Shown here: positions 6,993 through 62,430 of the stretch, piece after piece
How positions within the stretch are numbered: position 1 is the first letter of the stretch
Layout of the letters: the number at the start of each line of letters is the position of its first letter
Source of the DNA: Chiloscyllium plagiosum
Taxonomy: Eukaryota
Direction of reading: 5' to 3'
Assembly: GCF_004010195.1 (NCBI RefSeq)
Contig: NC_057719.1
Coordinates: 29,632,419-29,696,418 of the forward strand
DNA length: 64,000 nt
The notes under the pieces: generated by a model
Seen by the model: the letters and a program-made list of their open reading frames with translations, nothing else
What the model was told of the DNA's origin: nothing
The model's database searches: none
Translations under genes and position numbers: made by a program

Positions 6993-7213
6993 CTTTAAAT
7001 GGTAGATTTCACAGTTATTAACTATGAGATTGTTTCCCAAGTAGAGTTCTATTAAGGTGTATATTTTCTGTAAACAGCGTAGTGAACAAATGTTGTTGTT
7101 TTCTAGTGACAAATAGTGGAGATGCGTTAACTTGTCTAGACCACAGCCTTCCAAACTTTTCAATTGATTATTTCCAAGATTCAATCGAGTCAGTTTCATC
7201 AGCTTTGAAATCC
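6993..7213 (-). CDS. LRRC9: LRRC9 exon, (G)ISKLMKLTRLNLGNNQL...LIELYLGNNLIVNNCEIYHLK
   Basis: tag acceptor, gtaaat donor, 221 nt, phase 1/0. Completes the split Gly codon from the previous exon. Confidence 0.94.
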
Positions 7214-9174
7214 CTAATTGCAAGAAAAATTAATTAGTTAACAGTAACCCAGCAGGGATCAAGGAGCATCTTTTACACCCACAGGGTGCCCCAAAATCCA
7301 ACTAATTAATTACTAGTATAGTCATCATTGTTATGTAGGCAAATTCAGTAATCAATTCACATAAACTGCCATCAAATAAATTGCCAATTACTGTCTCTAC
7401 AATTGCCCAGACTTGATAGATTTAAAGAATATTATAATATAAGAATGAACCTTTGATTTATCATATAATGATTCAAGTAACACTAGGTAAATTACGTTGA
7501 AGATCTGTGGTTAGAATGTGCCCATCTCACTGGTCAAGCATTTTAAAAGAAAGATTAGCCCTCATAACAAATGATGACATAAGGTCATTAGTGAGAATGG
7601 ATTTTTGCTCAGAAAGTAGAATCAGTTTAGGAATAACACTGATACGGGTAATTTATGTCGGCCCAATCGTAATTACACCACTGAATGGAGCAAAATCTAA
7701 TTGGAGCTTTAAACAAAGACAACAGAATAATCGTTGATATTTAATCTTTGTATATATTGGACAAATCAAATTGGCTAAGGTGGTCTGGAAGATGGGTCTG
7801 TAGAATTATTTTGCAACAGTTTCCTAGAACAATATGTCCTAGAACCAATAGGAAATAGAGCTATTTTAGATCCTTAGATTTCGCATTTTTAATTAGGCAG
7901 TTTTAATTAGCAATCGCATAATAAAAGAGGCTCTGCAATAGGGTTATAGTACAACTGAATTCCATATTAAGTTTGAAAGTGGCACATTCCAATCTCAAAT
8001 AAATTTCTTAAACTTAAAGAAAGAAAATTCCATGGATACGGGAATTTCAAAAAAATTACATTCAATTAGAAAAAAAAACAAAAAAAATCCATCCATTGCT
8101 TCTAGCAAGTTGTTTTATTGACCATCACCATTAACAACCACAACCATGGTTGTGGCAGGACTACAGAGCTTAGATCTGATACAGTGAATGATCACTTGTC
8201 TCTTTGTGTTCTATGCCGTTTGCCCCGTGTTGTGCCTTCACTAGGCTTGCACCTTGTTTCTGTTTGTCTGTGCTGCTCCTGGCATGTTCTCCTGCACTTC
8301 ACTGAATCAGGTCTGGTCCCAGCTTGATGGTAATTGTAGACTGGGGGATATACTGGGTTAATAGGTTACAGATCATGGTTCAATGGAATTCTGCTGCTAC
8401 TGATGGCTCATTGTGCTTTGTATATGCCACTTTAGAGTTGCTGGATAAGTTTAAAATTTATGCTCATTACCATTCAACACAATGGAGAGGATCCTCAATG
8501 TGAAGTTGGTAATTTATCTCCACAAGGTTGATGGTCACTCCTACAAATGCTGTCATGGACAGATGCATCTGTGGTAGGTTGACTGGAAAGGGCTAGGTCA
8601 AGTACGTTTTTGCCTCTTGTTGGTTCTCTCACCATCTGCTGCAGACCTAGAGTATATTCTGTACCCTTACCACTCTGTGTTTCTTTCAGTTGGTGTTCAA
8701 CATGGAGAAGTATTAATAATCAGTTGAGAAGGAAGTGGTAGGTCAAAATCAGCAGATTCTCTTGATCATGTTTAACCTGCCATGAGGCTGTACATGGTCT
8801 GGAGTCAGTGCTGAGGACCTACAAGACAGATGCCAGTTGTGAATCATATTGCTGCCACCTCTGGTGAGTCTGCCATGGTGGTGGGAATGGACATACCCAG
8901 AGATAGGAATCATGAGGTCTGGGATATGGTCAGTTAGGCTCATTGCATCATACATTACTATGTCAGGTTGTTGCTTGACAAGTCCCCAAGAGAGCTATCC
9001 CAATTTTATACATGCCAGACATATAGCAGAGGGATGGTGACAAAAAAGTTATTTAGCATTTAGAAGAATGAGAGCTCATTCCACTGAAACTGAGTTTTGA
9101 AGGGGCTCTCTAAGATAAGATACTGAGAGATTGTTTCCATGACTGGGGAACATAAATCATGTTCCAAACTTAGG

Positions 9175-10577: not shown

Positions 10578-12345
10578 AGTCATGATTTGGAGATGCCGAT
10601 GTTGGACTGGGGTGTACAAAGTTACAAATCACTCAACACTAGGTTATAGTCCAACAGGTTTATTTGGAAGCGCTAGCTTTCGGAGTGCTGTTCCTTCATC
10701 AGGTGATTGTGAGAATAAGATTGCAAGATACAGAATTTATAGCAAAAGTTTTCAGTGTGAGGTAACTGAAATTATGTATTGAAAAAGATTGTTTGTAAAG
10801 TCTCTCATCTTTTAGAATGACCATGTTTTTTCAGTTCTTTCTTATGTAAGCTGCAAAAACTTTTTTAAAAGTTACATTCTCAAGTGCACTTTAACAATTG
10901 GTGTCATGTCGGCCCAGATAAGGTATTGAAGGTGTTAACTCCCTGTGAGGCTGTCTGTACCACAATGGGCAGACTGATTCTAATCTAAAAAACTGATTTA
11001 CAGAGTCTTACATGGATTCATGCAGCTTTTGAGCAAAGTAAAATGCAATTCTGCAAGTACAAATTCACCCCACCTGTCTGTGTGTATAGTGCAATGGGGT
11101 CATTTGTAGTGTGACATGAACCCAAGGTCCCAGTTGAGGCCATCCCCATGGGTACCAAACTTTGCTATCAGCCTGTGCTTGGCCACCTTTCGTTGTTGTC
11201 TGTCCCAAAGTCCGAGATAAACAACGTTGGCTGAGTCGCATGAGTGCCTGCCATGTATATGGTGTGAGATGTCCTCACGTGTAATGGTGGTATCTGTGTC
11301 AACAGTCTGACATATCTTGCAGCGTCTACCATGACAAAGTTGTATGGTATTGTCCTGAAAGCCAGGCAGTTTGCTACAAACAATGATCTGTTTGAGGCTG
11401 TTTAAAGGCGAGAAGTGGAGGTGTGGGGAAGGTCTGAGTGAGGAGCTCATCCTCATTGATGATGTGTTGCAGGCTGCGAAGAACATGGCATAGTTTTTCA
11501 TCTCCTGGGAAGTGCTGGACAACAAAGGGTACCCTGTCGGTTGCAGCTCGTGTCTGTCCCCTGAGGAGATCATTACAGTTCCTCGCTGTGGCAGGTCAGA
11601 ACTGGCAATCGATGAGTTGAGCATCGTACCCTGTTCTTATGAGGGCATCCGAGTACTTCCAGGTGCCCATCATGTTCCACCTCATCTGAACAGATCCTGT
11701 CTACGTGTAGGGCTTGTCCATAGGGAATGGCTGTTTTAATATGTTTCGGGTGGAAGCTGGAAAAGTGTAGCATCGTGAGGTTATCCGTGGGTTTGCGGTA
11801 GTGAAGTGCTGAGGTGTCCATTCTTAATGGAGATTCATGTGTCCAAGAATGGTGAGTTTGATGGTGGGATGCAACTTGTTGATATCACTGTGTAATTTTT
11901 GCAGTGACTCCTCTTCATGGGTCCAGAGGAAGAAAATGTCATCAATGTACCTGGAGTATAGTGTTGGTTGGAGGTCCTGTGTAGAGAAGAAGTCTTGTTC
12001 AAACCTGTGCATGAAAATGTTGGCATATTGGGAGACCATGGGTGTTCCATGTGTCTGAATGAAGAACTGGTTGTCAAAGGTGAAGACGTTGTGATCGAAG
12101 ATAAAGCAGATGAGTTGTAGGACAGTGCTCGGAGATTGGTAGTTGTTGGTGTTGAGTACCAAGGCTGTTGCCGTGATGCTGTCATTGTGGAGGATGCAGG
12201 CATAGAGTGCTGAAACATCCATTGTGATGAGGAATGTTCCTAGTTTGATTGGTCTGTGGGTGCTGAGTTTCTGTAAGAAATCTATATCTGGGGGTCCTCT
12301 GTACAATGGGTTTCAAGATGTCTTCAACATAGCCAGAGAGCTTCT
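10578..12345 (-). mobile_element. Penelope-like retroelement: degraded RT, GIY-YIG endonuclease and 3' pLTR
   Basis: Translations MDVSALY, QTHGTPM..YANIFM, RYIDDIF, YRKPTD..HP.HIK.AIP, C.GRRCKIC, C.SANVVY and LIAKFGTHGDGLN. Hammerhead in the pLTR. Confidence 0.9.
10671..10705 (-). ncRNA. Minimal type I hammerhead ribozyme motif (PLE family A)
   Basis: cac-CUGAUGA-a-GGAacagcacUCC-GAAA-GC-UA-gcg. Palindromic AGCU stem III; stems I and II carry mismatches. Confidence 0.65.
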
Positions 12346-26260: not shown

Positions 26261-28687
26261 ATGTTAGGCCATTTCAAAGGACAGTGAGAATCAACCACAT
26301 TGCTGTGGGTGTGGAATCACATATAGGCCAGAGAAGGTGAGGGTAGCAGATTTCCTTCCCTGAAAGACATTAGTGAACTAGATGGACTTTTCAGACAATT
26401 GACAATGGTTTTTGGTCATCAGCAGATTCTTAATTTCATATATCTTTTGCGGAATTCAAATTCCACCATCTGCCATGGTAGATTGAAACCTGGGTCCCCA
26501 GAATATTAGTCGAGTTGGTCAACGGAGAACTGTTTTGGCTTTTGAAACCAGATTTTCTGCACAGGTGGCCCAATGTCCTTTGGAGCCACGTAATTATGAA
26601 GAAATGCTAGACACTTCAGAATAGGTTCAACAAATGGCATCTAAGATGGATGTTTGGTTCACTTTGCTGACTGTAGCAGTTGTGTTGTATGCACTTAAAT
26701 CATGTAATTGATGTCGATCTGCCACTATGGTTTCATGCTAGCATCACATTCCAGCAGATGTCAGTTGCATGGGTATGGCTTTTTTTCTTCTTGCCCACAA
26801 GATCTTTCTTAAGGCTTTGTTTGAAGTAAAGGCAATTACAAATTTGGTTAGCCTCTCCACAAGTTCTTCTTCGGAGAATTACATTCATGCCGTTTGCTGT
26901 GGCATCTTATGACAAAGTCATTAACGGACTCCTGGGATTTTTGGTGTACAATATTGTTTAGAGCCTGTTAATCTGAAAGTTAATTCATGCCTTGCACAGG
27001 ATTTCTTTTGTAAGTAGTTTTAATTGGATGAGTAGTTAATATTCTTCAACTTTAAATGTGTTGACATTGGAAAGGTAAGCTTCCTCTTTTAATCTCAATT
27101 GCAAAAGTGGTTTTGTGGCTTGTTGTTTTTGCTTTTCTTTTATAAATTAAAGTTACATGGAAGCCTTCATGCCATCTGGTGCTCCCCCATTCAATTATGA
27201 CAAAATTTTATGCTAATATGGGTGCTATGGAAAGATATAACAATATTTCAGACAGGTCTATAAGATTGCATGGTGCTAAAAATGGCTGTCTTCATTCTTG
27301 TAATTACAGCACAAATGATAGTTGATCACAAATAATGATGAAAAATGAATATTACTTACAAATGTGATGTTCTATTTACAATGAAATTTCACCATGATAC
27401 CAAGTGCCCTCTTAGAGGTTTTCTTTTTCCTTCCCACTGAGTCTAGAAACAGTCCTGAGGTCTACATCTGGGATAGATGGAGCCTGGCCTATAATGGATC
27501 CTGTTGGTGTTGGAATTTTAAATGAATGATACAATTGTGGCTAGATGGCCCAGATATGCTGAAAGTCCTGCCCAGATGTAGGCTCACTGTCCTTGGTTTG
27601 AACTTCTGCAGGGTCAAGGGATGCAATCATAATGGAGGTAGAGGGACTGGGCACTTTAGCAGTCTCCTAAGAGCACATTTTTGAGGAGCCTATATATAGC
27701 TCCTCCTATTAGCACTCTTCTATTTCCTTGTGAGGAAGGGGTGTCTGCAGTGAGACCAAGATCCCTGTCACCCTGCCATTGGTGTTAATCACTTATGTGA
27801 GGGAGTGTCGAAGGTGCATCCTCTGTGTGAACTTCTTCCTCAGAGTGAAAAAGTTTATGATGTCAAGATGAGCTGGTCTCTTTATGGCAGAGACTGCATG
27901 GATGCCACTTAAGCCTGTGCAAGATAAGAATAGGAATGATTTGTGGAAGAGGTGCACGGGGCAGAAATTTGGACATATTAACAATATGGCGGTGGTAATG
28001 GGAAAGCAGTGCAACCTTTGGCCACAAGTCTTAGGTCATTAGGATAAGGATAATACTGGTTCTCGGATGAAAGTGTTAAATAAGGGAAAGGCTAATTACA
28101 ACAGGACTAGGCACAAACTGGAGAAATTAGATTGGCCGCAGCCGTGAGAGCCTTTTAAGATCATAAGACATAGGAGCAGAAATTAAACCATTCAGCCCAT
28201 CGAATCTGCTCCACCATTCAATCATGGTCGATAAGTTTCTCAACTCCATTCTCCTGCTTTCTCCTTATATCCTTTGATCCCCTTGACAATCAAGAGACTT
28301 TCTATCTCTGTTTTAAATATACTCAATGACCTGGCCTCCACAGCCTCTGTGGCAGTGAATTCTACAGATTCACCACTCTCTGGCTGAAGAAGTTTCTCCT
28401 TATCTACATTCTAAAAGGTCTTCCCATTACTCTAAGGCTGTGCCCTCAGGTCCTAGTCTCTCTGACCAATGGAAACATCTTCCCAACATCCACTCTGTCC
28501 AGGCCACTCAGTATTCTCTTAAAAGGAAGTTAATCAGAATTCAGGACCAGCACATTCCTGTAAGATTGAAATTAAGCCCAGCAAGATTTGGGAACCATGG
28601 ATGACAAGACATATTCAAAGTTTAGTTAAAAAATTCAAAGGAAACATTTCTGAGGTTTAGGCGACTGAAATCAGACAAGGCCCTTGT

Positions 28688-28719
28688 CTGAGGAAGGGCA
28701 TGTGCCCGAAACGTCGAAT
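28688..28719 (+). ncRNA. Hammerhead core (PLE family B), stem I 5' strand lost
   Basis: CUGAGGA-a-GGGCA-ug-UGCCC-GAAAC-GUC-gaau. Confidence 0.55.
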
Positions 28720-28994
28720 CTTCTGTTCCCTAGATGCTGCCTGACCTGCTGTGCTGTTCCAGCAATAAAGTTTCAGCCTTGTCTGAAGGAAGCAGGAAAA
28801 AACTTAAACAAGGAATTAGGAGGGCTAATAAGGGCCACTGAATGCCCTTGGCAAATAGGATTAAGGACAATACATGCATAAGGAACATGAACGTAGTTAG
28901 GGAAAGGGTAGGCTCACTCAAGGACAAACAGAACATTTATGCATGGAGCCAGAGAAGGTAGGTGAGGTTGTTATTGGTCTTCACCACTGAGAAG

Positions 28995-32320: not shown

Positions 32321-32789
32321 TTCACACATCGAAACTATGCAGTCTTCTTCTTGACTTGCTGTACTTGAACAGCTCCATATTTGTACTTTATATGTTGTTG
32401 GCAGCAAGAAACCTATAAGATCCTAACAGTGGTAATCATTTTTACTGCTGACTACCATGAAAGTAAACCATGGAGGCATGGTTCATGCTTACTGTGGTGA
32501 GCACGATACAATTACATGAAGAGGCTCAGCAGATCCACAGAGAATAACCCTCCAGACCAGAGCCCATCAAATTATTTTAAGAAGGTAGTTTAGACCCTAA
32601 AGTTTTCTTATTTTAAAGGTAGATGTGAACTATATGTTCCAGATGTGATGAGACTGGTCAAGCCACTTGACATTAAGCAAAACACAATAAATTAAACACT
32701 ACAGTTAAAATACAAACAAAAGAAAGAGGAATTTAAAAACTTGAACATTGGAAATGTTAACCGAATAATAGGTACACTAATTAACTGTT

Positions 32790-32994
32790 CTAGGAGAAAG
32801 TGAGGACTGCAGATGCTGGAGATCAGAGCTGAAAATGTGTTGCTGGAAAAGTGCAGCAGGTCAGGCAGCATCCAAGGAGCAGGAGAATCAATGTTTCGGG
32901 CATTTCCTGAAGAAGGGCTCATGCCCGAAACGTCGATTCTCCTGCTCCTTGGATGCTGCCTAACCTGCTGCGCTTTTCCAGCAACACATTTTCA
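32790..32994. mobile_element. Palindromic PLE family B insertion within an LTR-like repeat (about 32540-33400)
   Basis: 74-bp inverted arms; 16-bp TSD acactaattaactgtt. Confidence 0.85.
32903..32938 (+). ncRNA. Minimal hammerhead motif (PLE family B)
   Basis: uuc-CUGAAGA-a-GGGC-ucau-GCCC-GAAAC-GUC-gauu. Confidence 0.65.
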
Positions 32995-35497
32995 ACACTA
33001 ATTAACTGTTTCAATATAATAACATCCCACAATCACACCCTTAGCAAAAAGGTAAATTCAGACACAGATTCTCACATACAGTTCTCCATTCCAGGAAGAA
33101 ACAACATCAAGGGTGATTTCAGAGAAGGTAGTAGCCAGGGAATCATTCACTGAAGCTCCAACTCGTCTAGGACCCACATAGCTTCTGACTACTAAAGCTA
33201 AGAAAAATTAGAAAGCCTGGTCGGTGAGAACTGGCCACTCCCCTTCCGTTGTTATAACTGTTTTTAAAAAAAAACCTAAATGCCTCCCAAGTTATTTACT
33301 TCAGCCATTTTCATAGCCACTTTGGCACTTCCACCTTTACAATCTCTCTTCAAAAAAAACCAGAATAAAATAACCTTTTGAAAGTGACAGCATCGTCACA
33401 TACTTAGCTCCAAATCCTTCCTCAGGTGTCACCAAATGCAGGAATGCCTCAACTCTGTTTACCTCACTCTTCTTTTTTGAGATCTTCCTTGAAACTTAAT
33501 AAAAGCAAAGCATGACAGATATTATGGATCAAAAAACAAAAACAGAAGTTCTGGAGAAGTTCAACAGATCTGTTAGCATCTGTGGAGAGAGAAACAAAGT
33601 TAACATTTGAGTCTAATAAGACTTCAGAAAAAGTTCTTCAGCTTCTGGTTCTCTGTTCTTCTGTTTTTGTTCTTTGAAAACTACTACTATGACCAAACAT
33701 GATTGTGAACACCATGCAACAAACCATGCTAACTCCTCTGCCGTGTCCCCTCCCCCTACACAGCACTCCCCAAACAACCCTAATCCAAACAATGGCCTGG
33801 AGCAAACAATCATTCCAGCATACATGGGAGTACTGCCGGGCACCTACAGAATCCTAATCATAGTAGACTCGAAGGAACTGTCTGGGAAACTGAAGATTCA
33901 TTTGGACAATTCCACTATGCTTGGATGTTTCCACAAATTTGCATTTTGATTATAAAGTTCAAAATGTTCTGATGAAAGTAAATGAATAGTTACTCAGGAA
34001 ATGTTAGACTATAAATACACAGTCTAACTCCTGTTTAAGTTTTAAACTAAGTTAATACTGACCTCACACACTCCAACTACTCCTCTCAGACCCTGACCTC
34101 ACCTCACCCCACCCCACTCCTATTCCCCCAAGACCTAATATTGCACCAAGTTCTGGACCCAACATCCCTCTTTTCCATGCTGTACCTACCTCCATCCATC
34201 CTCCAATGCATTCCTCTCTCTTTTCCTTCTCCTAATCCACTCCTCCATCACTCTCTAACTTTCAGAGTACAACAGTTGACTGCTGTGCAAAGGAGTGCAG
34301 TTGCCTTTTCCTAACAGTTCTGCACTATGAGCAACCTACCAAGTATACTTCACATTTTCAAAGAAATGCTGATTGGAATCTCTGGTCAAAAATGAGGAGC
34401 CCTTTCATTTTGTAAAATAGAGTGGGAATTTCTTAAAAAGTCTAGCCCAATGTCTGTCTTTGCCTCAGTTATAGTTTTTCCAACTTGTACATTGTGCTAG
34501 TGTTTCTAATGTCAAAGTGTTCAGAAATGTATTTTTAAGAATTAAATTTTTATTAAGGACAATAACACAAAAGACCAGAGCAGCTTGTTTCACAGCAAAA
34601 TAGATTGGAATTTATAATCACTTTATATGTTCAAAATTATTTGACTGTATCAATAGCTAATTAGCCATAGTCCACAAAAGATCATAGCAATCGCTCCCCA
34701 GAGACAGATTATTAGTTACATAGCTTGAGGGATACCATTCCATATCAAACATGGGAAATGTCAAGAAAGCAGGCTTCCATGAATGACTACAGCCAGTAGT
34801 TGTTGAACCCATGCTGCTGGCATCATACTACACCACACTCTTTGCCAACAGAGCCAACTAACCACCACAAATCTAATATTGCTAAGTGTAATTTGTTAAA
34901 AACAAAATGAATCCAAAAAGTAAAGGTAACCTATCAGATGAACAGCTGAATTCTTTATGCCAGTTTCACATTTTGTATTTGGTGTACCTGCAAATTGGAG
35001 GTAGTAACTTGGAGAGTTACTAGCCTGCAAAGCCCATATTCCCTAAATGAATTAAAAGAAGTGTACGTAAGAAGTTTATGTCATACTTCATTTTTAAAAT
35101 AAATTCACTCCATGTCAATAATAATTTGAGATCGTAAGTCTGAACTTAACTGAAATATGGAAATGTGTTAGCATAATAAAAACTGATATTTAAAGTTTTA
35201 CATAGAGGATTAATAAAAAAATATAAAAGTCAGAGAGCAAGCCTTTCTATCAGGTAGCATATCCATCTTAAGTTTGTGTGAAATACCCAATTTTTTAATG
35301 TTGAAAAATAGTATGTCAATTATTAATGTTTTAAGCAGCATGCCAATAAAAAGAATTGAAAAAGTAAGCCTAAGATTTAAAAAAAAGTATACACACAGCT
35401 CAAGTGGAAGAGTCAATTGATTGAAAACAATTTTTTTTCCAATTTTAGTGTATACAGTCAAAGAAATCAGAGAAGTTAACATCAATGTTGATCATAC

Positions 35498-37762: not shown

Positions 37763-38326
37763 CTAATGAAAAACTGAAACAGATGCAACTTGACTTGCCA
37801 ACTTTTAGATTCAATGCCCTGACCAATGAAGACAAGCACACCACACACATCTTTACCCACCTTATCCACTTGCATTGCTCCTTTCAGGGAGCTATGGACT
37901 GGCACCCCAAACCCCCTCTGTATATCAGTGCTCAGGGCTCAACCATTTTCTGTATATTTTCCTCTTGTAATAGATCTCCTAAGATGCATTACTTCACACC
38001 TGTCCATATTAAACTCCACTTCCTATTTCTCCATCCAACTTTTTACTGGTCTATATCTTGCTGTCTAGAACAGGAGCAAGGATGTTGTTGGAGTTATACA
38101 GGGCCCTGGTGAGGGCACCCGAGAATAGCGTGCGCAATTTTGGTCTCCTTTTCTGAGGAAGGATGCTCATGCTCTCTCTCTCTCTCTCTCGTGCAGCGAA
38201 GGTTTACCAGGCTGATTCAGAGGATAGCGAGACTGACGCATGAGGATTGATTGACGAGGCCTAGGTTAGTTGAAACTTTATTGCTGGAACAGCACAGCAG
38301 GTCAGGCAGCATCCAGGGAACAGGAG

Positions 38327-38362
38327 ATTCGACGTTTCGGGCACAGGCCCTTCTTCAGGAAT
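38327..38362 (-). ncRNA. Minimal type I hammerhead ribozyme, intact
   Basis: AUUC-CUGAAGA-a-GGGC-cugu-GCCC-GAAAC-GUC-GAAU; stem I AUUC/GAAU, palindromic ACGU stem III. Confidence 0.8.
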
Positions 38363-38646
38363 GAGCAGAGAGTGTTCAGCAGGAGAAGATAAAAGGTAGG
38401 GAGGAGGGACTTGGAGGAGGGGAGTTGGCAGAGGAGATGACCTGGGGTGTGCAGTGAGAGAGGGACTCACTGAAATCTTTGTAGAGAGAGGCAGAGAGCT
38501 TCTTCAAGGAAGGCATCCTTGTAAGAGGATTCGCAGTAGGTTGAAATCTTCGAGGAGAAAGTGAGATCTGCAGATGCTGGAGATCAAAGTTGAAACTTTA
38601 TTGCTGGAACAGCACAGCAGGTCAGGCAGCATCCAGGGAACAGGAG

Positions 38647-38682
38647 ATTCGACATTTCGGGCACAGGCCCTTCTTCAGGAAT
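38647..38682 (-). ncRNA. Minimal hammerhead, tandem copy (GAAAU variant)
   Basis: Identical to 38327-38362 except C>U in stem III. Confidence 0.7.
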
Positions 38683-38778
38683 GAGCAGAGAGTGTTAGAT
38701 CTTTGTAGAGAGAGGCAGAGAGCTTCTTCAAGGAAGGCATCCTTGTAAGAGGATTCGCAGTAGGTTGAAATCTTCGAG

Positions 38779-39452
38779 ACACAGTCTGTGATAGACACTG
38801 TCAGCTGCAGGAAGAATGCAGTCTGTGATAGATGCTGTCAACACCGGGAAGGACACAGTTTGTGATAGACACTGTCACCACCATGAAAAACACACTCTGT
38901 GATAGAGGATGTCAGCACCAGGAAGAACACAGTCTGAGATAGACACTGTCAGCACCAGGAAGAACACAGTCTGAGATAGACACTGTCAGCACCAGGAAGA
39001 ACACAGTCTGAGATAGACACTGTCAGCACCAGGAAGAACACAGTCTGAGATAGACACTGTCAGCACCAGGAAGAACACAGTCTGAGATAGACACTGTCAG
39101 CACCAGGAAGAACACAGTCTGAGATAGACACTGTCAGCACCAGGAAGAACACAGTCTGAGATAGACACTGTCAGCACCAGGAAGAACACAGTCTGAGATA
39201 GACACTGTCAGCACCAGGAAGAACACAGTCTGAGATAGACACTGTCAGCACCAGGAAGAACACAGTCTGAGATAGACACTGTCAGCACCAGGAAGAACAC
39301 AGTCTGAGATAGACACTGTCAGCACCAGGAAGAACACAGTCTGAGATAGACACTGTCAGCACCAGGAAGAACACAGTCTGAGATAGACACTGTCAGCACC
39401 AGGAAGAACACATTCTGTGACAGACACTGTCAGCACCAGCATGAACACAGTC
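38779..39452. repeat. 37-bp minisatellite, about 18 units with about 13 perfect (acacagtctgagatagacactgtcagcaccaggaaga)
   Basis: Read directly; degenerate units at both ends, homogeneous core. Confidence 0.95.
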
Positions 39453-39781
39453 GAAGATAAACACAGTCGAAGATACCACAACAACGCGACGGTCGGAGGA
39501 GGAGCGTCTTATCTTCCGACTGGGAACCCTCCAACCACAGGGGATGAACTTGGACTTCACCAGTTTCTTCATCCCCCCTCCCCCCACCTTGTCTCAGCCG
39601 AATCCCTCCAGCCCGGCTCCGCCTTCCTGACCTGCAGTCTTCTTGTTGACCTCTCCGCCTCCATCCTACTCCGACCTATCACCCTCACCTTGACCTCTTT
39701 CCACCTATCACATTTCCAACGCCCCTCCTCCAAGTCCCTCCTCCCTACCTTTTATCTTCTCCTGCTGAACACTCTCTGCTC

Positions 39782-39817
39782 ATTCCTGAAGAAGGGCCTG
39801 TGCCCGAAACGTCGAAT
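39782..39817 (+). ncRNA. Minimal type I hammerhead ribozyme, intact
   Basis: AUUC-CUGAAGA-a-GGGC-cugu-GCCC-GAAAC-GUC-GAAU; predicted cleavage after 39813. Confidence 0.8.
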
Positions 39818-39914
39818 CTCCTGTTCCCTGGATGCTGCCTGACCTGCTGTGCTGTTCCAGCAATAAAGTTTCAACTTTGATCTCCAGCATCTGCAGACCT
39901 CACTTTCTCCTCGA

Positions 39915-40880
39915 GGCCTAGGTTAGGCCTAGATTATATTTGCTGGCGTTCAGACGAATGAGGGGGGAATCTCAGAGACTTATAAAATTCTAACAGGACT
40001 AAGTAGGGTGGATGCAGGGAGGATGTTCCTAATGTTGGGTGTGTCCAGAACTAGGGGTCACAGTCTGAGGATTTGGGATCGACCATTTAGGATGGAGATG
40101 AGGGGACATTTCTTCACTCAAAGAGTAGTGAGCCTGTGGAATTCATTATCCATTTATATTGCCACAGGAAATAGTTGATGCCAAAACATTGAATGTATTC
40201 GAGAGGCAGCTAGATATACCACTTGGGATGAATGGGATCAAAGGTTATGGGGAGAAAGCAGGATTAGACTATTGAGTTGGATGGTCAGCCATGATTGTGA
40301 TGAATAGCGGAGTAGGCTCAAAGGGCTGGTTTGGCCTCCTCCTGCTCCTATTTTCTATGTATCCTTTGATAACCTTCCTGACTATCCACAACTCCAACTT
40401 TCATTTTGGCTGAAAACTTATTAATTAAACTACCTACATTTTCATCCAAAGCATTTCGGTATATATTATATATTAATATACATATCACAAGCAACAGAGA
40501 TCCCAGCACTAATCCTTGTGGAACACCACTGGTCATAGACCTCCAGTTAGGAAAACACCCTTCCACAGCCACCCTCTGTCTTATAAGACCAACCCAATGT
40601 TGTGTCCAATTTGCCAACATACTGTTGATCCTATATGACAATCTTCTGGACCAACCTACCATGAGGCATCTTGTCAAATGCTTTTGTAAAGCCCATGCAG
40701 ACAATATCCACTGGCCTACCCTCATCAATCATCTTTGTTACGTTCTCAAAAGACACCAAGTTTGAGACAAGATCTCCCTGGCATTTAGCATGCTTTCCCA
40801 AATAAGACCATTCTTTTCCAAATGCTAATAAATCGTGTATCTAAGAATCTTCTCCAATAATCTTCCAAACTACTGATATT
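39915..40880. mobile_element. CR1 fragments (plus-strand 3' end to about 40360, then minus-strand RT)
   Basis: SGVPQGLVLGSLL in ORF 40348-40728; CR1 3' UTR. Confidence 0.75.
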
Positions 40881-45120: not shown

Positions 45121-47560
45121 AGAGTCACAGAGATGTACAGCATGGAAACAGACCCTTCGGTCCAACCTGTCCATGCCGACCAGATATCCCAACCCAATCG
45201 AGTCCACCTGCCAGCACCCGGCCCATATCCCTCCAAACCCTTCCTATTCATATACCCATCCAAATGCCTCTTAAATGTTGCAATTGTACCAGCCTCCACC
45301 ACATCCTCTGGCAGCTCATTCCATACACGTACCATCCTCTGCGTGAAAAGGTTGCCCCTTAGGTCTCTTTTATATCTTTCCACTCGCACCCTAAACCTAT
45401 GCCCTCTAGTTCTGGACTCTCCGACCCCAGGGAAAATACTTCATCTATTTATCCTATCCATGCCCCTCATAATTTTGTAAACCTCTATAAGGTCACGCCT
45501 CAGCCTCCAACGCTCCAGGGAAAACAGCCCCATCTGTAGCGCAAATCCTCCAAGCCTGGCAGCATCCTTGTAAATCTTTTCTGAACCCTTTCAAGTTTCA
45601 CAACATCTTTCTGATAGGAAGGAAACCAGAACTGCACGCAATATTCCAACAGTGGACTAACCAATGTCCTGTACAGCTGCAACATGACCTCCCAACTCCT
45701 ATACTCAATACTCTGACCAATAAAGGAAAGCATACCAAATGCCTTCTTCACTATCCTCTCTACCTGCATCTCCACTTTCATGGAGCTATGAACCTGCACT
45801 CCAAGGTCTCTCTGTTCAGCAACACTCCCTAGGACCTTAACATTAAGATATACAAGTCCTGCTAAGATTTGCTTTCCCAAAATGCAGCACCTCGCATTTA
45901 TCTGAATTAAACTCCATCTGCCACTTCTCAGCCCATTGGCCCATCTGGTCCAGATTCTGTTGTAATCTGAGGTTAACCTCTTTGCTGTCTGCTACACTTC
46001 CAATTTTGGTGTCATCTGCAAACTTACTAACTGTACCTCTTATGCTCACATCCAAATCATTTATGGCCCTCTGTCTTCTACCTTTGAGCCAGTTCTGTAT
46101 CCAAATGGCTAGTTCTCCCTGTATTCTGTGGGATCTAACCTTGCTAACCAGTCTCTCATGGGGAACCTTGTAGAACGCCTTATTGAAGTCCATATAGTTC
46201 ACATCTACTGCTCTGCCCTCATCAATCCTCTTTGTTACTTCTTCAAAAAACTCAATCAAGTTTGTGAGACATGAGTTCCCACGCACAAAGCCATGTTGAC
46301 TATCACTAATCAGTCCTTGCCTTTCCAAATACATGTACATCCTGTCCCTCAGGATTCCCTCCAACAACTTGCCCACCACCGAGGTCAGGCTCACCGATCT
46401 ATAGTTCCCTGGCTTGTCTTTACTACTTTTCTTAAACAGTGGCACCACGTTTGCCAACCTCCAGTCTTCCAGCACCTCCCCTGTGACTATCGATGAGACA
46501 AATATCTCAGCAAGAGGCTCGGAAATCACTTCTCTGGTTCCCACAGAGTTCTCGGGTACACCTGATCAGGTCCTGGGGATTTATCCACTTTTACCCGTTT
46601 CAAGACATCCAGCACTTCCTCCTCTGTAATCTGGACATTTTGCAAGATGTCACAATCTATTTCCCGACATTCTATATCTTCCATATCCTTTTGCATAGTA
46701 AATACTGATACAAAATATTCATTTAGTATCTCCCCCATTTTCTGCGGCTCCACACAAAGGCTGCCTTGCTGATCTTTGAAGGGCCCTATTCTCTCCCTAG
46801 TTACCCTATTGTCCTTAATATATTTGTAAAAACTCTTTGTATTCTCCTCAATTCTATTTGCCAACGATATCTCATGTCCCCTTTTTGCCCTCCTGATTTC
46901 CCTCTTAAGTATACTCCTACTTTCTTTATACTCTTCTAAGGATTCACTCGATCTATCCTGTCTATACCTGACTTACGCTTCCTTCTTTTTCTGAACCAAA
47001 CCCTCAATTTCTTTAGTCATCTAGCATTCCTTATACCTACTAGCCTTCCCTTTCACCCTGACAGGAATATACTTTCTCTGGATTCTTGCTATCTCATTTC
47101 TGAATCTTCCCATTTTCCAACCGTCCCTTTATCTGAGAACATCTGCCTCCAATCAGCTTTTGAAAGTTCTTGCCTAATACTNNNNNNNNNNNNNNNNNNN
47201 NNNNNNNNNNNNNNNNNNNNNNNNNNNNNNNNNNNNNNNNNNNNNNNNNNNNNNNNNNNNNNNNNNNNNNNNNNNNNNNNNNNNNNNNNNNNNNNNNNNN
47301 NNNNNNNNNNNNNNNNNNNNNNNNNNNNNNNNNNNNNNNNNNNNNNNNNNNNNNNNNNNNNNNNNNNNNNNCCCTACCATAACTACCCTATTCTTCTTAC
47401 AGATAGCTGAGATCTCCTTACAAGTTTGTTTCTCAATTTCCCTCTGACTATTGGGGGGTCTATAATACAATCCCAATAAGGTGATCATCCCTTTCTTATT
47501 TCTCAGTTCCACCCAAATAACTTCCCTGGATGTATTTCCAGGAATATCCTCCCTCAGCAA
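45121..47560 (-). mobile_element. CR1 ORF2 (endonuclease end, RT, 3' UTR) spanning the assembly gap, inside an older CR1 (to about 48450)
   Basis: ORFs 47174-47569 (YYRPPN), 46526-46864, 45843-46544 (QHGF, FADDTK) and 45500-45880. Confidence 0.92.
47182..47371. other. Assembly gap (190 N)
   Basis: Run of N. Confidence 1.
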
Positions 47561-50592: not shown

Positions 50593-50909
50593 CTAAATAA
50601 ATTCAATTCGGACAAAAAATGATTAAGTACATTCATTGTAAACTTTGAAAATGCTATCTTTATTTTTATTACATTTTCCTACTTCCCTCCATTATTGACC
50701 AAACTTGAAATGAAAAGATGGCTGAATCTGTTATTTGCACCATGAGCTACAATGCAAAGTCAGAGTTATATCAGATATAACATATAAAATATATTATTGC
50801 AAGCTAAATACAGGAAATGTCATAAGAGTTTTTTTTTCCATCCACTCGTTTCAATTATTAATATTGGTTACCAATCTCTTGAGAAAGGACTTGGGTCTTT
50901 TTTCTAAGA

Positions 50910-51138
50910 GCTGAAAGTGTGTTGCTGGAAAAGCGCAGCAGGTCAGGCAGCATCCAAGGAGCAGGAGAAAGAAGTCTGAGTACATCCCTTGTGGTTGGAG
51001 GGTTCCTAGGCGGAAGATGAGGCGCTCTTCCTCCAACTGTCGTGTTGCTACGGTCTGGCGATGGAGGAGTCCAAAGACCTGCATGTCCTTGGTGGAGTGG
51101 GAGGGGGAGTTGAAGTGTTGAGCCATGACCTCACTTCC
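50910..51138 (-). mobile_element. Internally deleted PLE family B fragment
   Basis: AQHFNSPSH...EEERLIFRLGTLQPQGM; 14-bp TSD tcttttttctaaga. Confidence 0.85.
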
Positions 51139-52774
51139 TCTTTTTTCTAAGATCCATGTATTGATCAAGTGTTTATTTTAATTTTAAGATTTTTAACCAG
51201 GTATATCTACTACTATATTTTGTCATTATCTTGAATTCACTTGTTTCAACGATATCTCCACATATTTATAGTGGAAACTGAACTCTGAGGAGGCATGCAC
51301 TCTGTGTAGAAGTTAAGACTTTAGAAAAGGGCTCCAGAAAGATAAAATAAGTATAGCTGAAAATTAAATATTAAAATTGTTATTTATCTATTGGCTTATT
51401 TGAAGTCTATATGAAGTTATAGCTTCCAATAAATCCAATGAATTTAAAAGGGGTGAATGGCCTATAATGTTATTTTTCCACCCATGAGGGAAGAATAAAG
51501 TTTACAGCAGATATCTCACATTAACTGTAAAGTCTCCTACCTTCCTGCAGGGACAGATTCTCAGTTCTAAAACAACATAACATGGTTACTTCTTGTACAA
51601 GATAAACAATTTTACATCATAGATGGGGTAGACCAGAACACATCATGGTATGGTAAGCATGAATAATAGGTGTCGGGCAAAAGGCTGAACACTAAACATC
51701 AAAACTTGAATTTTCCTTTCGAGGTTGGAAAGCAAAAGCTGAAACTGTGTTCAGGTCATCTTCCATTGAAGATGGCGTGCAGGCTCTCTTGGTTGGAGGG
51801 CTAATTGGAAACCTTGCTGTTTGAGACAAGGAGCAGGGTGTTATGGAAGGTAACAGAAATGGTGCTTCTTTCCAACTACTTAAAGTGTTTAATTTAAAAA
51901 TGACATTCTCATTAGCCACCGCCATGCTGCAATAGAGATTTCCTCGAAAGGACAAGTTGGCTCCAGCAGCCAAGAAGGAATGCCTCCAGAAGAAAACTTT
52001 TCACAGCAGCCTTAGGAAATACATTTCAACACCAAAATATGTAAGGGGATGCTAGGTTAGATTATCAAAAGCATAACCAAAGAGGCAGGTTTTAAAAAGT
52101 CTTTTTTTTTTTACTATTCACTCATGGGACATGGACATCACTGGTTGGGCCAGTATTTATTGCCAAATCCTATTTGCCTTTGAATAAATCGTGACGAGTA
52201 TCCTTCTTGAACTGGTAGACCCATAATGCCATGAGGGAGAGAATTCAATGACATTGACCCAATGCCAGTAAAGGAATGGTGATATGAGAACAAATTGCAG
52301 GTGGCGATGTTCCCATGTATATGCTACCCATATCCTTGTAAATGGAAGTAGTTATGAGTTTGGAAGGTGCGGTCTATGGACCTTTGATGAATTTCTGCAG
52401 AGATACAGACTGCCGTCTAAGCATCGGTGACAGAGTGACTGAATGTGGAGGAAATAGCAAAACACCGGTAGTGAGATGGGCAGGGAGGGCATTCAAGAAA
52501 TTAGTATTGCCTGGAGTGATGTTTCACCTCCCCTAACCCAGCTGTTATTTTCTTACCTCCAGAAACCTAAACTGGTCTCCATCAATGTAGAATACTAGAG
52601 AATAAATGGAAAATAGTGTCTGCTATAACTGGACTATATTAGGCCCCTAAAAAGCCAAATTGTAAACCTGTCACATATAAGTAGGCAACCCTGCCAACAT
52701 CTATCCTGACTTGGCAAAAATAGCCTGGCTAAGTGCTGTTAATCTTTGGCTTTCATTACAGTAATCGTATTATT

Positions 52775-53100
52775 TCCACAGTAATGAAGCAGGCCATTTC
52801 GCCTATCAAGTCCACACTGATCCTCTGAAGAGCATTCCACCCATTTCCAATGGCTAATCCAACTAGTCTGCACATCCCTGGAAATTTAGCCTGGCCAATC
52901 CACCTAATCTGCACATCCCTGGAAATTTAGCCTGACCAATCCACCTAACCTGCACATCTTTGGACTGTGGAGGAAACTGCAGCACCTGGAGGAAAACCAT
53001 GCACATGTGGTAAGAACATGAAATCTCTACACAGATAGTTGCCCCAGGCTGGATTCAAGCCCAGGTCCCTGGTGTTGTGAGGGAGCAGTACTAACCACGG
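52775..53100 (-). mobile_element. V-SINE with internal 41-bp tandem repeat
   Basis: V-core on minus strand; aatcc..ctgcacatc repeated at 52856, 52897 and 52938. Confidence 0.75.
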
Positions 53101-53181: not shown

Positions 53182-56168
53182 TGTAATGATTGGAATGAGG
53201 TCAGCCATGAATATGAGTTCCCTGATTGGGACTATTAACTTGGTCCAATCAGGGAATCCTGGCTGACAGATATAAACACAATTGTTTCCCCTTCACTGTT
53301 TTGATCACACAGCACTGCCCTTTGATGTGAAGGGCAGTGTTTGTCACTGGCCACCCGGGTGTTTTCCTATCTTCCTGGTGGTGGAAATTGAATAAAGATT
53401 GTTGCACTTTGTGTCTTTCACTGTGTCTCACACCTGCACACACACACAATGGGTGCTGGGGATAAAATAAGCACTACCGCACTAGGTGGTAGTGTGGGGG
53501 TTAAAAAAGAAAGGGGAAAAGAAAAAAAGAAAAAAAGAAAAAAAAAGAAGAAAAAAAGAAATAAGAATAAAGAGGGGAATTTCATTGCATTCTGCAAAGT
53601 AACTTTGCAAAAAAAAAAAAAAATAAAGGATAAAATAAGCACTACCGCACTTAGGTGGTAGTGTGGGGGTTAAAAAAGAAAGGGGAAAAGAAAAAAAGAA
53701 AAAAAGAAAAAAAAGAAATAAGAATAAAGAGGGGAATTTCATTGCATTCTGCAAAGTAATTTTGCAAAAAAAAAGAAAAAAAAAATAAACACAATTGTTT
53801 CCCCTTCACTGTTTTGATCACACAGCACTGTCCTTTGATATGAAGGGCAGTGTTTGTCACTGGCCACCCGGGTGTTTTCCTGTCTTCCTGGTGGTGGAAA
53901 TTGAATAAAGATTTGTGCACTTTGTGTCTTTCACTGTGTCTCACACCTGCACACACACACACCATGGGTGCTGGGGATAAAATAAGCACTACCGCACTTA
54001 GGTGGTAGTGTGGGGGTTAAAATAAAAAAAAGAAAAAAAAAAAGAAAAAAAAAATAAACAACAGTGTTTCCCTACCCTCCCCTTCACTGTTCTGATCACT
54101 CAGCACTGCCCTTTGAAAAAAAAATAAACACAATTGTGTGTCTCACACCTGCGCACACACCATGGGTGCTGGGGATAAAATAAGCACTACCGCACTTAGG
54201 TAGTAGTGTAAGAAAAAAATAAATAAAAAGGGGAGTGTCCAATTCTATTTTGAAAAAAAAGAGAAATAAACACAATTGTTTCAGGGAGAGGTGGACCCCG
54301 CAGGGAGTGGAGTGCATTATTTCTCCCTCCAACTCTATTTTGATTTAGTCCCTGCCCTCCACCTCACTGTTTTGATCATACGGCATTGCCCTTTGATGTG
54401 AAGGGCACTGCTTGTCACTGGCCACTCGGGTGTTTTCCTATCTTCCTTGTGATGGAAATTGAATAAAGATTCGTGCACCTTGTGTCTCTCACTGTGTCTC
54501 ACACGTAAATACACATACCATGGGTGCTAGGGAAAAAATAAGCACCACCGCACTTAGGTGGTAGTGCGGGGGTTAGATTTTTAAAAAATTTTTAAAAAAT
54601 AAACAGGGAATTATAAAAAAAAAAGAAAAAATATAACCAGAGGATTTGATGTGAAGGGCAGTGCTTGTCACTGGCCACTCGGGTGAGAAAAAAAATTTAA
54701 AAAAACACAATTGTCACACAGCACTGTCCTTTGATGTGAAGGGCAGTGCTTGTCACTGGCCACTCGGGTGTGTTCCTATCTTCCTGGTGGTGGAAATTGA
54801 ATAAAGATTTGTGCACTTTGTGTCTTTCACTGTGTCTCACATCTACACACACACCATGGGTGCTGGGGAAATGTAAGCACTACCGCAGTTAAGCGGTAGT
54901 GTGGGGGTTTAATAAAACAAAAAAAAGAGATAAACAGGAGATTTGGGTGCTGGGAAAAAAATAAGCACTACTGCAACTAGGCGGTAGCAAAAAAGAAAAA
55001 AAAAGTGTTGAACATCCTGTTCACTCTGAGGGAGCTAAAAAAAATAAACACAATTGTGCCAAACTGGCCATAAATAGGTCCAGACAGCGGGCCGTGGAGG
55101 GGGTCGTTAGGGCCGACTGCCTGCCCCTCTTCGGCAGTTACATTAGAGCCCGGGTGTCCTTAGAGAAGGAGCACGCGGTGTCCACCAACACCCTGAAGTT
55201 GTTCAGGGAGAGGTGGGCGCCGCAGGGAGTGGAGTGCATTATTTCCCCCTCCAACTCTATTTTGATTTAGTCCCTACCCTCCCCTTCACTGTTTTGATCA
55301 CACAGCACTGCCCTTTTGATGTGAAAGGCAGTGCTTGTCACTGGCCACTTGGGTGTTTTCCTTTCTACCTGGTGGTGGAAATTGAATAAAGATTCGTGCA
55401 CCTTGTGTCTCTCACTGTGTCTCACACCTGCACACACACACCATGGGTGCTGGGGAAAACAAAAAGCACTACCACAGTTAGGCGGTTGTGTGGGGGTTAG
55501 AAAAAAAAGAAAAAAAAGAATAGCAATCTAAAAAAAAAGAAATAGGAGGGTCTCCCCTTCACTGTAAAAAAAAAAGCATGAGTGTCCAATTCTATATAAA
55601 AAAATAAACACAATTGTGCCAAAATGGCCATAAATAGGTCCAGGCAGTGGGCCGTGGGGGGGGTCATTAGGGCCGACTGCCTGCCCCTCTTCCACGGTTA
55701 CGTTAGGGCCCGGGTGTCCTTGGGGAAGGAGCACGCGGTGCCCACCAACACCCTGGAGTTGTTCAGGGAGAGGTGGGCGCCGCAGGGAGTGGAGTGCATT
55801 ATTTCCCCCTCCAACTCTATTTTGATTTAGTCCCTGCCCTCCCCTTCACTGTTTGATCACACAGCATTGCCTTTTGTGAAGGGCAGTGCTTGTCACTGGC
55901 CACTCGGGTGTTTTCCTATCCTCCTCGTGGTGGAAATTGAATAAAGATTCGTGCACCTTGTGTCTCTCACTGTGTCTCACATCTGCACACACACAAAAAA
56001 GAAAAGAAAAAAACAGGAGTGTTAGAAAAAACAAACAAAAAGGAGTGTCAATCATCATGTTTACTCTGAGAGCTGGCTCTGAGGGAGCCAGACCAGTGTC
56101 AAAGACACTCCACGTGTAAATAAAAGGTGACTTGGTGGTGGGATACTGGCCTCTGTGGAGTTATTTCA
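53182..56168 (+). mobile_element. Gypsy LTR split at its TATA region by a Tx1-derived array
   Basis: TGTAAT start, ttccctgattgg..ccaatcagggaa hairpin, gatataaaca. Resumes aggagtgtc near 56041 and ends gttatttCA, like the LTR end at 57195. Confidence 0.75.
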
Positions 56169-62030: not shown

Positions 62031-62430
62031 TTCCCAGCAATGTCAACATCTCCTGAATGAATAATAAAATAATGTCTCCAGGTCAAATAGTTCAGCCCGA
62101 GCAGTGAAGAGTAAATCAAGTTAGGATTGCTGAAGTGATTGTGTGTAACAAGTGTCGGAACAAACTATGGGCATAGTTGAACACCATAGGGAAAAGTATG
62201 GACTGCAGATGGAATCAAAAGTGTGGTGCTTTCCCAGCAATGTCAACATCTCCTGAATGAATAATAAAATAATGTCTCCAGGTCAAATAGTTCAGCCCGA
62301 GCAGTGAAGAGTAAATCAAGTTAGGATTGCTGAAGTGAATGTGTGTAACAAGTGTCGAAACAAACTATGGGCATAGTTGAACACCATAGGGGAAAGTAAG
62401 GACTGCAGATGGAATCAAGAGTGTGGTGCT
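62031..62430. repeat. 200-bp tandem duplication
   Basis: 62031-62230 versus 62231-62430, 5 mismatches counted. Confidence 0.95.

What the first reader, a model, noticed from the sequence alone, without database searches (positions are those of the whole stretch)
38255..39926. TSD-flanked composite of Penelope pLTRs enclosing a minisatellite
Seen: a 15-bp direct repeat brackets two minus-strand pLTR units, about 18 x 37-bp repeats, and a plus-strand endonuclease tail with pLTR. The host CR1 resumes on both sides. Known: PLE insertions often carry tandem and inverted pLTRs. Inference: the minisatellite arrived with the element in one event (capture, template switch or trans-mobilisation), giving an SVA-like VNTR composite that could disperse satellites.
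Basis: partly seen in the sequence, partly recalled or inferred. Interest (0 to 1): 0.7.

Follow-up and report, generated by a model that had tools for sequence, protein, structure and literature searches.

The report
Minisatellite trapped between Penelope retroelement arms
A young insertion of a Penelope-like jumping gene in a shark-type genome trapped a short piece of a minisatellite that exists elsewhere in the genome, and that piece then grew in place into a new repeat locus; it looks like a one-off event of a known kind, not a spreading composite element.

Summary
The structure is real. A perfect 15-bp target duplication brackets two head-to-head Penelope-like (PLE) arms, about 99.5% alike, around 18.6 x 37-bp units, and the host LINE resumes in register. 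The arms follow the textbook PLE pattern (partial tandem, inverted copy, one-sided 38-bp tail, minimal hammerheads); a cargo-free twin lies 5 kb away.

Public reads add three rough estimates. (1) The 37-bp family exists elsewhere: about 850-2,000 units in this species, few in two relatives. (2) All five diverged edge units carry the family's majority base; the 13 identical core units carry a private base whose depth fits this locus alone. (3) The unit beside the right junction has single-copy depth.

Best reading (0.6): both target ends primed PLE cDNA, a piece of about 230 bp or more of the minisatellite bridged the two cDNA ends, and it later expanded locally. Capture is supported; an SVA-like mobile family is not. 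Not seen: the empty site, the donor locus, read support for the left half. Non-coding capture between pLTRs is already described. Whether PLEs caused this species' apparent amplification of the 37-bp family is open.

The parts
38038..38254 (+). Host LINE (CR1-type, recalled name), part left of the target
   Evidence: Aligns to the paralog at 22985-22797, 128 of 185 identical; paralog ORF has RVT_1, E 1.2e-15
38255..38269 (+). Target-site duplication, left copy; its last 2 nt also fit the left arm's natural continuation
38268..38428 (-). Left arm, outer unit: 3' part of pLTR with minimal hammerhead core (38358), ending at the inner of the two family 3' ends (no tail)
   Evidence: 160 of 161 identical to 39716-39876, the one difference at the jump junction
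38429..38554 (-). Left arm: 126 nt that follow the tail (X, probably the ORF start), joined to the pLTR through a 5-nt microhomology
   Evidence: 'ORF start' is inferred from PLE anatomy (PMC3846280, PMC11167929)
38550..38696 (-). Left arm, inner unit: hammerhead-bearing pLTR end plus tail (core at 38678, one C>T change in the core)
   Evidence: 145 of 147 identical to 39768-39914
38699..38778 (-). Left arm: first 80 nt of X; its 5' end coincides with the position where the right arm's 3' end lies
   Evidence: 80 of 80 identical to 38475-38554
38779..38926 (.). Four diverged 37-bp units (3, 8, 5, 5 differences from the core), all with the family-majority T at unit position 11: captured donor material
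38927..39407 (.). Thirteen identical 37-bp core units with a locus-private A at unit position 11: local expansion (inferred)
   Evidence: depth of the A allele 157.8 against baseline 15.8 in X1; 72 of 75 raw reads read T
39408..39444 (.). Diverged last unit (5 differences, T at position 11)
   Evidence: window base at 39442 has depth 15.9 in X1
39444..39475 (+). 16-bp tandem duplication spanning the right junction: start of a minisatellite unit joined to the 8-mer from the tail/X boundary, twice
39475..39630 (+). Right arm: C-terminal end of the GIY-YIG endonuclease reading frame with its stop codon
39631..39876 (+). Right arm: 3' region / pLTR with minimal hammerhead core at 39786
   Evidence: no Rfam match
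39877..39914 (+). 38-bp tail, present at the right outer end only
   Evidence: loose ends with mixed flanks (agreement 0.32-0.34) pile behind 39911-39912 in all 4 of 4 runs
39912..39926 (+). Target-site duplication, right copy; its first 3 nt overlap the tail end
39927..40360 (+). Host LINE resumes; the orthologous copy is present in relative B at about 96% identity
   Evidence: records 9 and 16 and rows 40153, 40157

Best explanation
A single, young, dead-on-arrival PLE insertion with filler captured at its inversion joint, followed by local growth of the filler. (1) The PLE endonuclease nicked both strands 15 nt apart inside an old LINE (TSD shown; nicking inferred). (2) Each free 3' end primed reverse transcription, one at each of the family's two usual start points 38 nt apart, giving head-to-head arms with a tail on one side only (anatomy shown; mechanism by analogy with the anole PLE, which cuts and extends both strands and starts at two sites in vitro, PMC11167929). 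(3) The RT stopped early and jumped three times to the stretch just past the tail (+126, +80, about +5), making the partial tandems (junctions shown; jumping inferred). (4) Both cDNAs ended at the tail/ORF boundary and were bridged by a piece of at least about 6 units (about 230 bp) copied from a pre-existing 37-bp minisatellite family elsewhere in the genome, by an RT template jump or by host synthesis-dependent end joining; the imperfect microhomology and 16-bp duplication at the right joint fit repeated priming (inferred; enzyme unknown). (5) Afterwards one unit acquired a T>A change and expanded to 13 identical copies, founding a new VNTR locus (inferred). It works like twin priming with a templated insert. 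It is not shown to be mobile as a unit.
For: TSD 15 of 15 and arm copies differing at 2 positions outside junctions in about 400 compared, against edge units 3-8 of 37 from the core and 6-11 from each other: the edge divergence is older than the insertion. Host LINE in register. Family elsewhere: 72 of 75 raw reads at 39381 read T; X1 depth 13,383-32,063 against a single-copy contig at 15.8, about 850-2,030 units; B and C hold only the T form at low depth. All 5 of 5 edge units carry T, all 13 of 13 core units A. A-allele depth about 10 units, and 1-3 raw reads expected from one core against at most 3 seen. Window base at 39442 has depth 15.9, one copy. Arm base G39645 is about 85 copies in X1 and absent from B and C contigs, so the arm subfamily looks younger than the split. 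Family 3' ends pile at 39911-39912; in-window copies end at either point (3 near 39876, 2 near 39912). A cargo-free head-to-head insertion with a 16-bp TSD lies at 32774-33010. The left arm ends with the base its natural template predicts, one nt past the shared TCGA, which weakly favours no earlier palindromic joint.
Against: The empty site was not displayed in any of 4 runs; B's nearest piece stops at 39952. The left arm, left junction and most of the array were never laid against reads. The tool warns that summed contig depth is no copy number; 84% of X1 was read, a filter drops records, X1 may be the assembly's own sample, and the baseline is one contig (other listed X1 pieces range 10.8-20.8). 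In raw run X19, 7 of 57 reads at 39442, 6 of 82 at 39421 and 4 of 85 at 39413 lack the majority base, more than one locus would give, so last-unit-like sequence may occur several times. No X1 contig showed the window's base at 39421. TCGA flanks the block on both sides, which also fits a later insertion. The right arm's end is the family's normal end, so its coincidence with the left arm's start does not prove a shared RNA.
Confidence: 0.6

Rival explanations
1. Two steps. The head-to-head PLE arms inserted first and were joined through a short palindrome centred on the self-complementary TCGA. A later break at that centre was patched with a copy of the minisatellite (templated sequence insertion), which then expanded.
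For: TCGA stands on both sides of the block and the two inward-facing 8-mers would form a 12-bp palindrome without it. Palindromes at inverted PLE junctions are common (PMC3846280, passages). The 16-bp duplication resembles end-joining scars.
Against: The base after the left TCGA follows the natural PLE template, not the palindrome (1 in 4 by chance). The insertion is very young, leaving little time for a second hit at exactly the joint. Earlier notes list several fillers exactly at such joints (e1-7789820, e1-7789279, e1-7858368; unchecked), which suggests capture during integration.
Confidence: 0.2
2. One reading: a PLE-mobilised composite that carries the 37-bp repeat as standing cargo (SVA-like) and has spread it; this locus is one derived copy.
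For: Both the arm variant (about 85 copies) and the bulk of the 37-bp family (about 850-2,000 units) look specific to this species, and the ratio would allow 10-24 units per copy. 4-7 raw reads carry non-majority bases at last-unit positions. PLEs mobilise host DNA in trans (PMC3846280).
Against: Total X1 depth at 39442, next to the right junction, is only 59.3, of which 15.9 is this locus's base; the core variant fits one locus. Opposite-facing arms are not a simple copy of one transcript. No second copy in 64 kb.
Confidence: 0.12
3. The minisatellite arose in place from junction sequence after the PLE inserted.
For: The unit start resembles the PLE 8-mer at the right junction (7 of 9 positions with the core unit). 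The core is perfectly homogeneous.
Against: The family occurs in relatives B and C and far more abundantly elsewhere in this species, in the T form. Edge units are far more diverged than the arms. The unit has no match in the arms.
Confidence: 0.03
4. Misassembly joined two PLE copies through a collapsed repeat.
For: No listed contig spans the laid stretch, and the left half was not checked against reads.
Against: A perfect 15-bp TSD and an in-register host LINE on both sides are not expected from a mis-join. X1 holds the locus-specific bases at 39381 and 39442 at depths that fit the assembled structure.
Confidence: 0.05

Closest known systems
Complex tandem/inverted insertions of endonuclease-positive Penelope-like elements (Craig et al. 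2021, PMC8557442, passages; Frangieh et al. 2024, PMC11167929, parts 1-2 of 4)
   Same: Partial tandem, inverted 5'-truncated copy, 30-40-bp tail at one end only, hammerhead in the pLTR, two RT start points, TSD.
   Different: No full ORF; three jumps into the stretch after the tail; foreign DNA at the inversion joint. The target here is not AT-rich and shows 2-3 nt overlap with the template, whereas the anole enzyme starts without homology in vitro.
Host DNA captured between Penelope pLTRs in Adineta vaga (Arkhipova et al. 2013, PMC3846280, abstract and passages)
   Same: Unrelated sequence framed by pLTRs and one TSD; the paper also mentions a few non-coding captures between solo pLTRs.
   Different: Their proven case lies between two direct pLTRs, is a whole gene and has a shown empty site. 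Here the cargo lies between inverted arms, is a minisatellite, and appears to have expanded after arrival; the empty site is not shown.
L1 twin priming with template switching or templated insertions (Mendez-Dorantes et al., PMC11702581, passages; Zumalave et al., 10.1101/2024.08.27.596794, passages)
   Same: Head-to-head cDNAs with intact TSD, breakpoints a few nt apart on the template, extra sequence at the inversion junction; templated inserts are usually under 250 bp, like the inferred original piece.
   Different: Different element class, no poly(A); the reported L1 templates mostly lie within 15 bp of the site, while no donor was found within this 64-kb window.
SVA composite retrotransposons (composition as stated in PMC13174262, passage; other features recalled)
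   Same: A VNTR between retroelement-derived parts inside one TSD.
   Different: SVA is a multi-copy family copied from one poly(A) transcript with shared junctions; this block has opposed arms, no poly(A), and single-copy depth next to the one junction tested.
Non-LTR retrozymes (10.64898/2026.07.22.740005, part 1 of 5) and PLE minimal hammerheads (Cervera and de la Pena 2014, PMC4209133, passages)
   Same: Two consecutive hammerhead-bearing pLTR-derived units in the left arm.
   Different: The units are unequal jump products, not a tandem family; the real tandem array (37 bp) has no hammerhead.

Membership tests
EN+ Penelope-like element insertion | Derives from an ORF with RT and C-terminal GIY-YIG endonuclease | tested here: met
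   Only the last ~50 codons are present; 32 of 47 identical to the C-terminus of P0006, which has RVT_1 and GIY-YIG hits. The peptide alone hits no relevant Pfam family.
EN+ Penelope-like element insertion | pLTR with minimal hammerhead motif | tested here: met
   Core motif in all 3 of 3 pLTR copies by a pattern I wrote from recall, read against PMC4209133; Rfam gave no hammerhead match; cleavage not tested.
EN+ Penelope-like element insertion | 30-40-bp tail at one end; inverted 5'-truncated copy; partial tandem; TSD | tested here: met
   38-bp tail at the right outer end only, inverted arms, two units on the left, 15-bp TSD; family ends pile at the tail end.
EN+ Penelope-like element insertion | Clade (Penelope/Poseidon, Neptune, Nematis) | not tested
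   No tree built; no RT in the insertion.
PLE capture of host DNA (A. vaga type) | Cargo unrelated to the element and present elsewhere in the host genome | tested here: met
   No match of the unit in the arms; family abundant in reads and present in relatives. Donor locus itself not located.
PLE capture of host DNA (A. vaga type) | Empty site with a single copy of the TSD | tested here: inconclusive
   B holds the host LINE but no displayed piece reaches the target.
PLE capture of host DNA (A. vaga type) | Cargo between direct pLTRs, copied in trans as one unit | tested here: not met
   Cargo lies between inverted arms.
SVA-like composite retrotransposon | Many copies sharing internal junctions | tested here: not met
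   Single-copy depth next to the right junction and one-locus depth of the core variant. Left junction untested; copies with other junctions are not excluded.
SVA-like composite retrotransposon | Parts co-oriented on one transcript ending in poly(A) | tested here: not met
   Opposed arms, no poly(A) at either end.
SVA-like composite retrotransposon | Transcribed and re-mobilised as a unit | not tested
Non-LTR retrozyme | Tandem repeat whose consecutive units each carry a type I hammerhead | tested here: not met
   TRF reports no such tandem here; the two left units are unequal and the 37-bp array lacks the motif.
Twin-primed insertion (L1 model) | Both cDNAs from one RNA, breakpoints adjacent on the template | tested here: inconclusive
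   Right arm 3' end and left arm 5' end overlap by 4-5 nt on the template, but the right end is also the family's usual start point.

The most novel reading that the evidence does not exclude
The inversion joint of PLE insertions is a routine seeding point for minisatellites, and the apparent amplification of this 37-bp family in this species (roughly 850-2,000 units against about 2-20 in two relatives) was driven by a young PLE subfamily of about 85-100 copies that carried or repeatedly captured it, each seed then expanding on its own. This locus would be one caught example of retroelement-driven birth of VNTR loci.
Probability: 0.15. Interest if true: 0.6.

Novelty: new variant of a known kind. 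Interest (0 to 1): 0.33.

Why it matters
It is a well-preserved, datable example of how a minisatellite reaches a new chromosomal site: captured as a short piece at a retroelement's inversion joint, then expanded from a single marked unit. The junctions also record the PLE copying steps (two start points, jumps to the stretch after the tail, both cDNAs ending at one template position), which remain unresolved in vivo. As one dead insertion it changes little. It would matter more if many copies of the 37-bp family turn out to sit inside PLE arms, because PLE-rich genomes would then have a route for dispersing tandem repeats. I found no paper describing minisatellite capture by a PLE in searches of the open library (listings and abstract starts only for most hits; subscription papers and supplements not seen).

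Tried and rejected
Donor in the window: best matches outside the array (17 of 20, 21 of 30, 24 of 37) equal shuffled-unit controls (16, 19-22, 22-24; 4 shuffles each); the N gap at 47182-47371 has no repeat on its flanks. Metagenome scan with a 27-base piece of the first unit: 0 matches, uninformative for a shark repeat. Earlier-findings look-ups by sequence or relatives were blank, but so was a control with the very common PLE arm, so the blanks carry no weight; word and near look-ups were also blank. Rfam: one chance lncRNA match, no hammerhead. Protein atlas on the 52-aa EN piece: nothing usable. Folding of the 37-bp unit and of the monomeric hammerhead region: no better than shuffles (z 0.86-1.04), so no structural role is claimed for the repeat. 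Run shares of 0.18-0.21 for B and C were not used as evidence. Empty site: the joint and loose-end tables were filled by repeat reads (15 of 848 joints, 24 of 3,495 loose ends and 40 of 630 differing positions shown), so absence from them means nothing; 4 of 21 listed runs were laid, on 1,500 bases covering two array units, the right arm and the right flank. The idea that the hammerhead cut site defines the central junctions was dropped: the shared position is the tail/X boundary, about 100 nt downstream of the motif. The idea that the 8-mer at 39467 is ordinary endonuclease sequence was weakened, not excluded: the in-window relative has other bases there and raw depth is 48 in bin 39421-39470 against about 3,900 in the next bin, but the arm's own small subfamily would be hidden in those numbers.

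Full report
Observation. The block is as described. A 15-bp direct repeat, identical in both copies, lies at 38255-38269 and 39912-39926. Between them are a minus-strand arm (38268-38778), a 37-bp array of 18.6 copies (38779-39468), a 16-bp duplication (39444-39475) and a plus-strand arm (39475-39914). The host is an old LINE: the two flanks align to consecutive parts of one in-window paralog with a 10-nt excess between them, about what an 11-bp near-duplication overlapping the target would give. The paralog's ORF has an RT domain; the name CR1 is my recall.

The arms are Penelope-like. The right arm encodes the last ~50 residues of a protein whose closest named relatives come from carpet sharks and carry RT and GIY-YIG domains (13 hits among 15 candidates for a longer in-window copy; Pfam; 32 of 47 identical). 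All 3 pLTR copies hold a minimal hammerhead core (compared with PMC4209133, passages). The left arm ends 38 nt before the right arm's end. In-window relatives end at one or the other point, and loose ends with mixed flanks pile at the outer one in all 4 runs laid. This is the one-sided tail of PLEs (PMC8557442, passages), which the anole enzyme explains by two RT start sites and extension of both strands (PMC11167929, parts 1-2 of 4). A second head-to-head insertion with a 16-bp TSD and no cargo lies at 32774-33010, so the frame is ordinary for this genome; earlier notes say the same (unchecked).

Internal joints. Read in the direction of synthesis, the left cDNA copies 161 nt of pLTR, jumps to +126 of the stretch after the tail (5-nt microhomology), copies back through tail and pLTR, jumps to +80, and stops at the tail boundary. 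The right cDNA starts at that same boundary, copies tail, pLTR and endonuclease end, then carries 8 nt from the boundary. That 8-mer occurs 5 times in the window on both strands, 4 of them inside the insertion. So both cDNAs end at one template position, facing the array. The right joint repeats 16 bp made of a unit start plus the 8-mer, which resembles the unit's own continuation at 7 of 9 positions. I infer repeated priming on the repeat; the enzyme is unknown.

Age and origin of the array. Outside junctions the arm copies differ at 2 positions in about 400 compared, TSD included, while relative B differs from this locus by about 4% (records 9 and 16). The five edge units differ from the core at 3-8 of 37 and from each other at 6-11, so their divergence predates the insertion. 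laid 4 of 21 listed runs on 39371-40870. At unit position 11, 72 of 75 raw reads read T where the core has A. In X1 contigs the T form has summed depth 13,383-32,063 against 15.8 for a zero-difference flank contig, about 850-2,030 units; the A form has 157.8, about 10 units. One 481-bp core should give 1-3 raw reads for genome sizes of 2.5-7 Gb, which I assumed; at most 3 were seen. B and C hold only the T form, at depths 37-330 and 35-68, by my hand estimate 2-20 units, a lower bound because only contigs at least 88% alike were laid. All 5 edge units carry T and all 13 core units A. The simplest history is capture of about six units from an existing family, one substitution, then local expansion. 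No donor lies in the window.

One copy or a family. Next to the right junction (39442) total X1 depth is 59.3, of which 15.9 is this locus's base: one copy. B shows only the other base, C has no cover. The arm base G39645 has about 85 copies in X1 and none in B or C, so the insertion probably postdates the split. Against this: the tool warns that summed depth is no copy number; 84% of X1 was read and it may be the assembly's sample; 4-7 raw reads carry non-majority bases at three last-unit positions, more than one locus predicts; no X1 contig showed the window's base at 39421; the left junction was not tested; copies with other junctions would be missed; and only a small part of each table was shown. 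The empty site was not displayed. The match between about 85 arm copies and about 850-2,000 units keeps a dispersal scenario alive, and an earlier unchecked note reports PLE-spread host DNA in this genome.

Mechanism and rivals. Best (0.6): dual-primed PLE insertion, filler captured at the joint in the same event, later expansion. Two-step repair patch (0.2): TCGA flanks the block and the two 8-mers would form a short palindrome, but the left arm follows its natural template one base further and the insertion is young. Mobile SVA-like composite (0.12). Origin in place (0.03). Misassembly (0.05).

Comparison with what is known. Arkhipova et al. 2013 (PMC3846280, abstract and passages) showed host DNA framed by pLTRs and a TSD and mention non-coding cases. 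L1 studies (PMC11702581 and 10.1101/2024.08.27.596794, passages) describe twin priming with switches and templated inserts mostly under 250 bp. Earlier notes on this genome list 143-236-bp fillers at PLE joints (unchecked). The block therefore works like a twin-primed insertion with a templated insert, belongs to the PLE insertion class, and fails the tested features of SVA and of retrozymes. What is new is the cargo and its fate: a minisatellite seed with a private marker that shows growth after arrival. My searches found no report of this for PLEs; the library lacks most subscription papers, and I opened no supplements.

Verdict. Real, clean, probably single-copy; a new variant of a known kind. 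Interest 0.33. The boldest open reading, PLE-driven seeding of this minisatellite across the genome, has probability about 0.15 and needs only a genome BLASTN to settle.

Noticed in passing
window 32774-33010: Head-to-head pLTR insertion of a related PLE subfamily with a 16-bp TSD, tail on one side and no filler; a direct control for the finding.
   Followed up: yes
window 50896-51152 (minus strand): PLE copy with a longer endonuclease end joined by an internal deletion to the pLTR end, 14-bp TSD; used to identify the protein.
   Followed up: partly
window 28682-28786: Solo pLTR end that starts right at the hammerhead core, with a 10-bp TSD whose last four bases double as the start of the core.
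   Followed up: partly
window 39914-39935: 11-bp near-tandem duplication (10 of 11) in the host LINE overlapping the target, rich in short palindromes; it may be an older scar at the same spot.
   Followed up: partly
bins 39371-39470: The 37-bp family appears tens of times more abundant in this species than in relatives B and C; whether in one large array or dispersed is unknown.
   Followed up: partly
window 6867-7229 (minus strand): Exon-like leucine-rich-repeat coding stretch (Pfam LRR_4, E 2e-7); the window may lie in or beside an LRR gene.
   Followed up: no
window 11100-12312 (minus strand): Decayed RT and downstream coding remains (RVT_1, E 4e-4) that look by eye like a different PLE family.
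   Followed up: no
window 62031-62430, 53460-53785, 52851-52958, 560-634: Two- to three-copy tandem duplications of 200, 157, 41 and 37 bp; the 37-bp one is unrelated to the array's unit.
   Followed up: no
window 47182-47371: Assembly gap of 190 N inside LINE-like sequence; no minisatellite on its flanks.
   Followed up: partly
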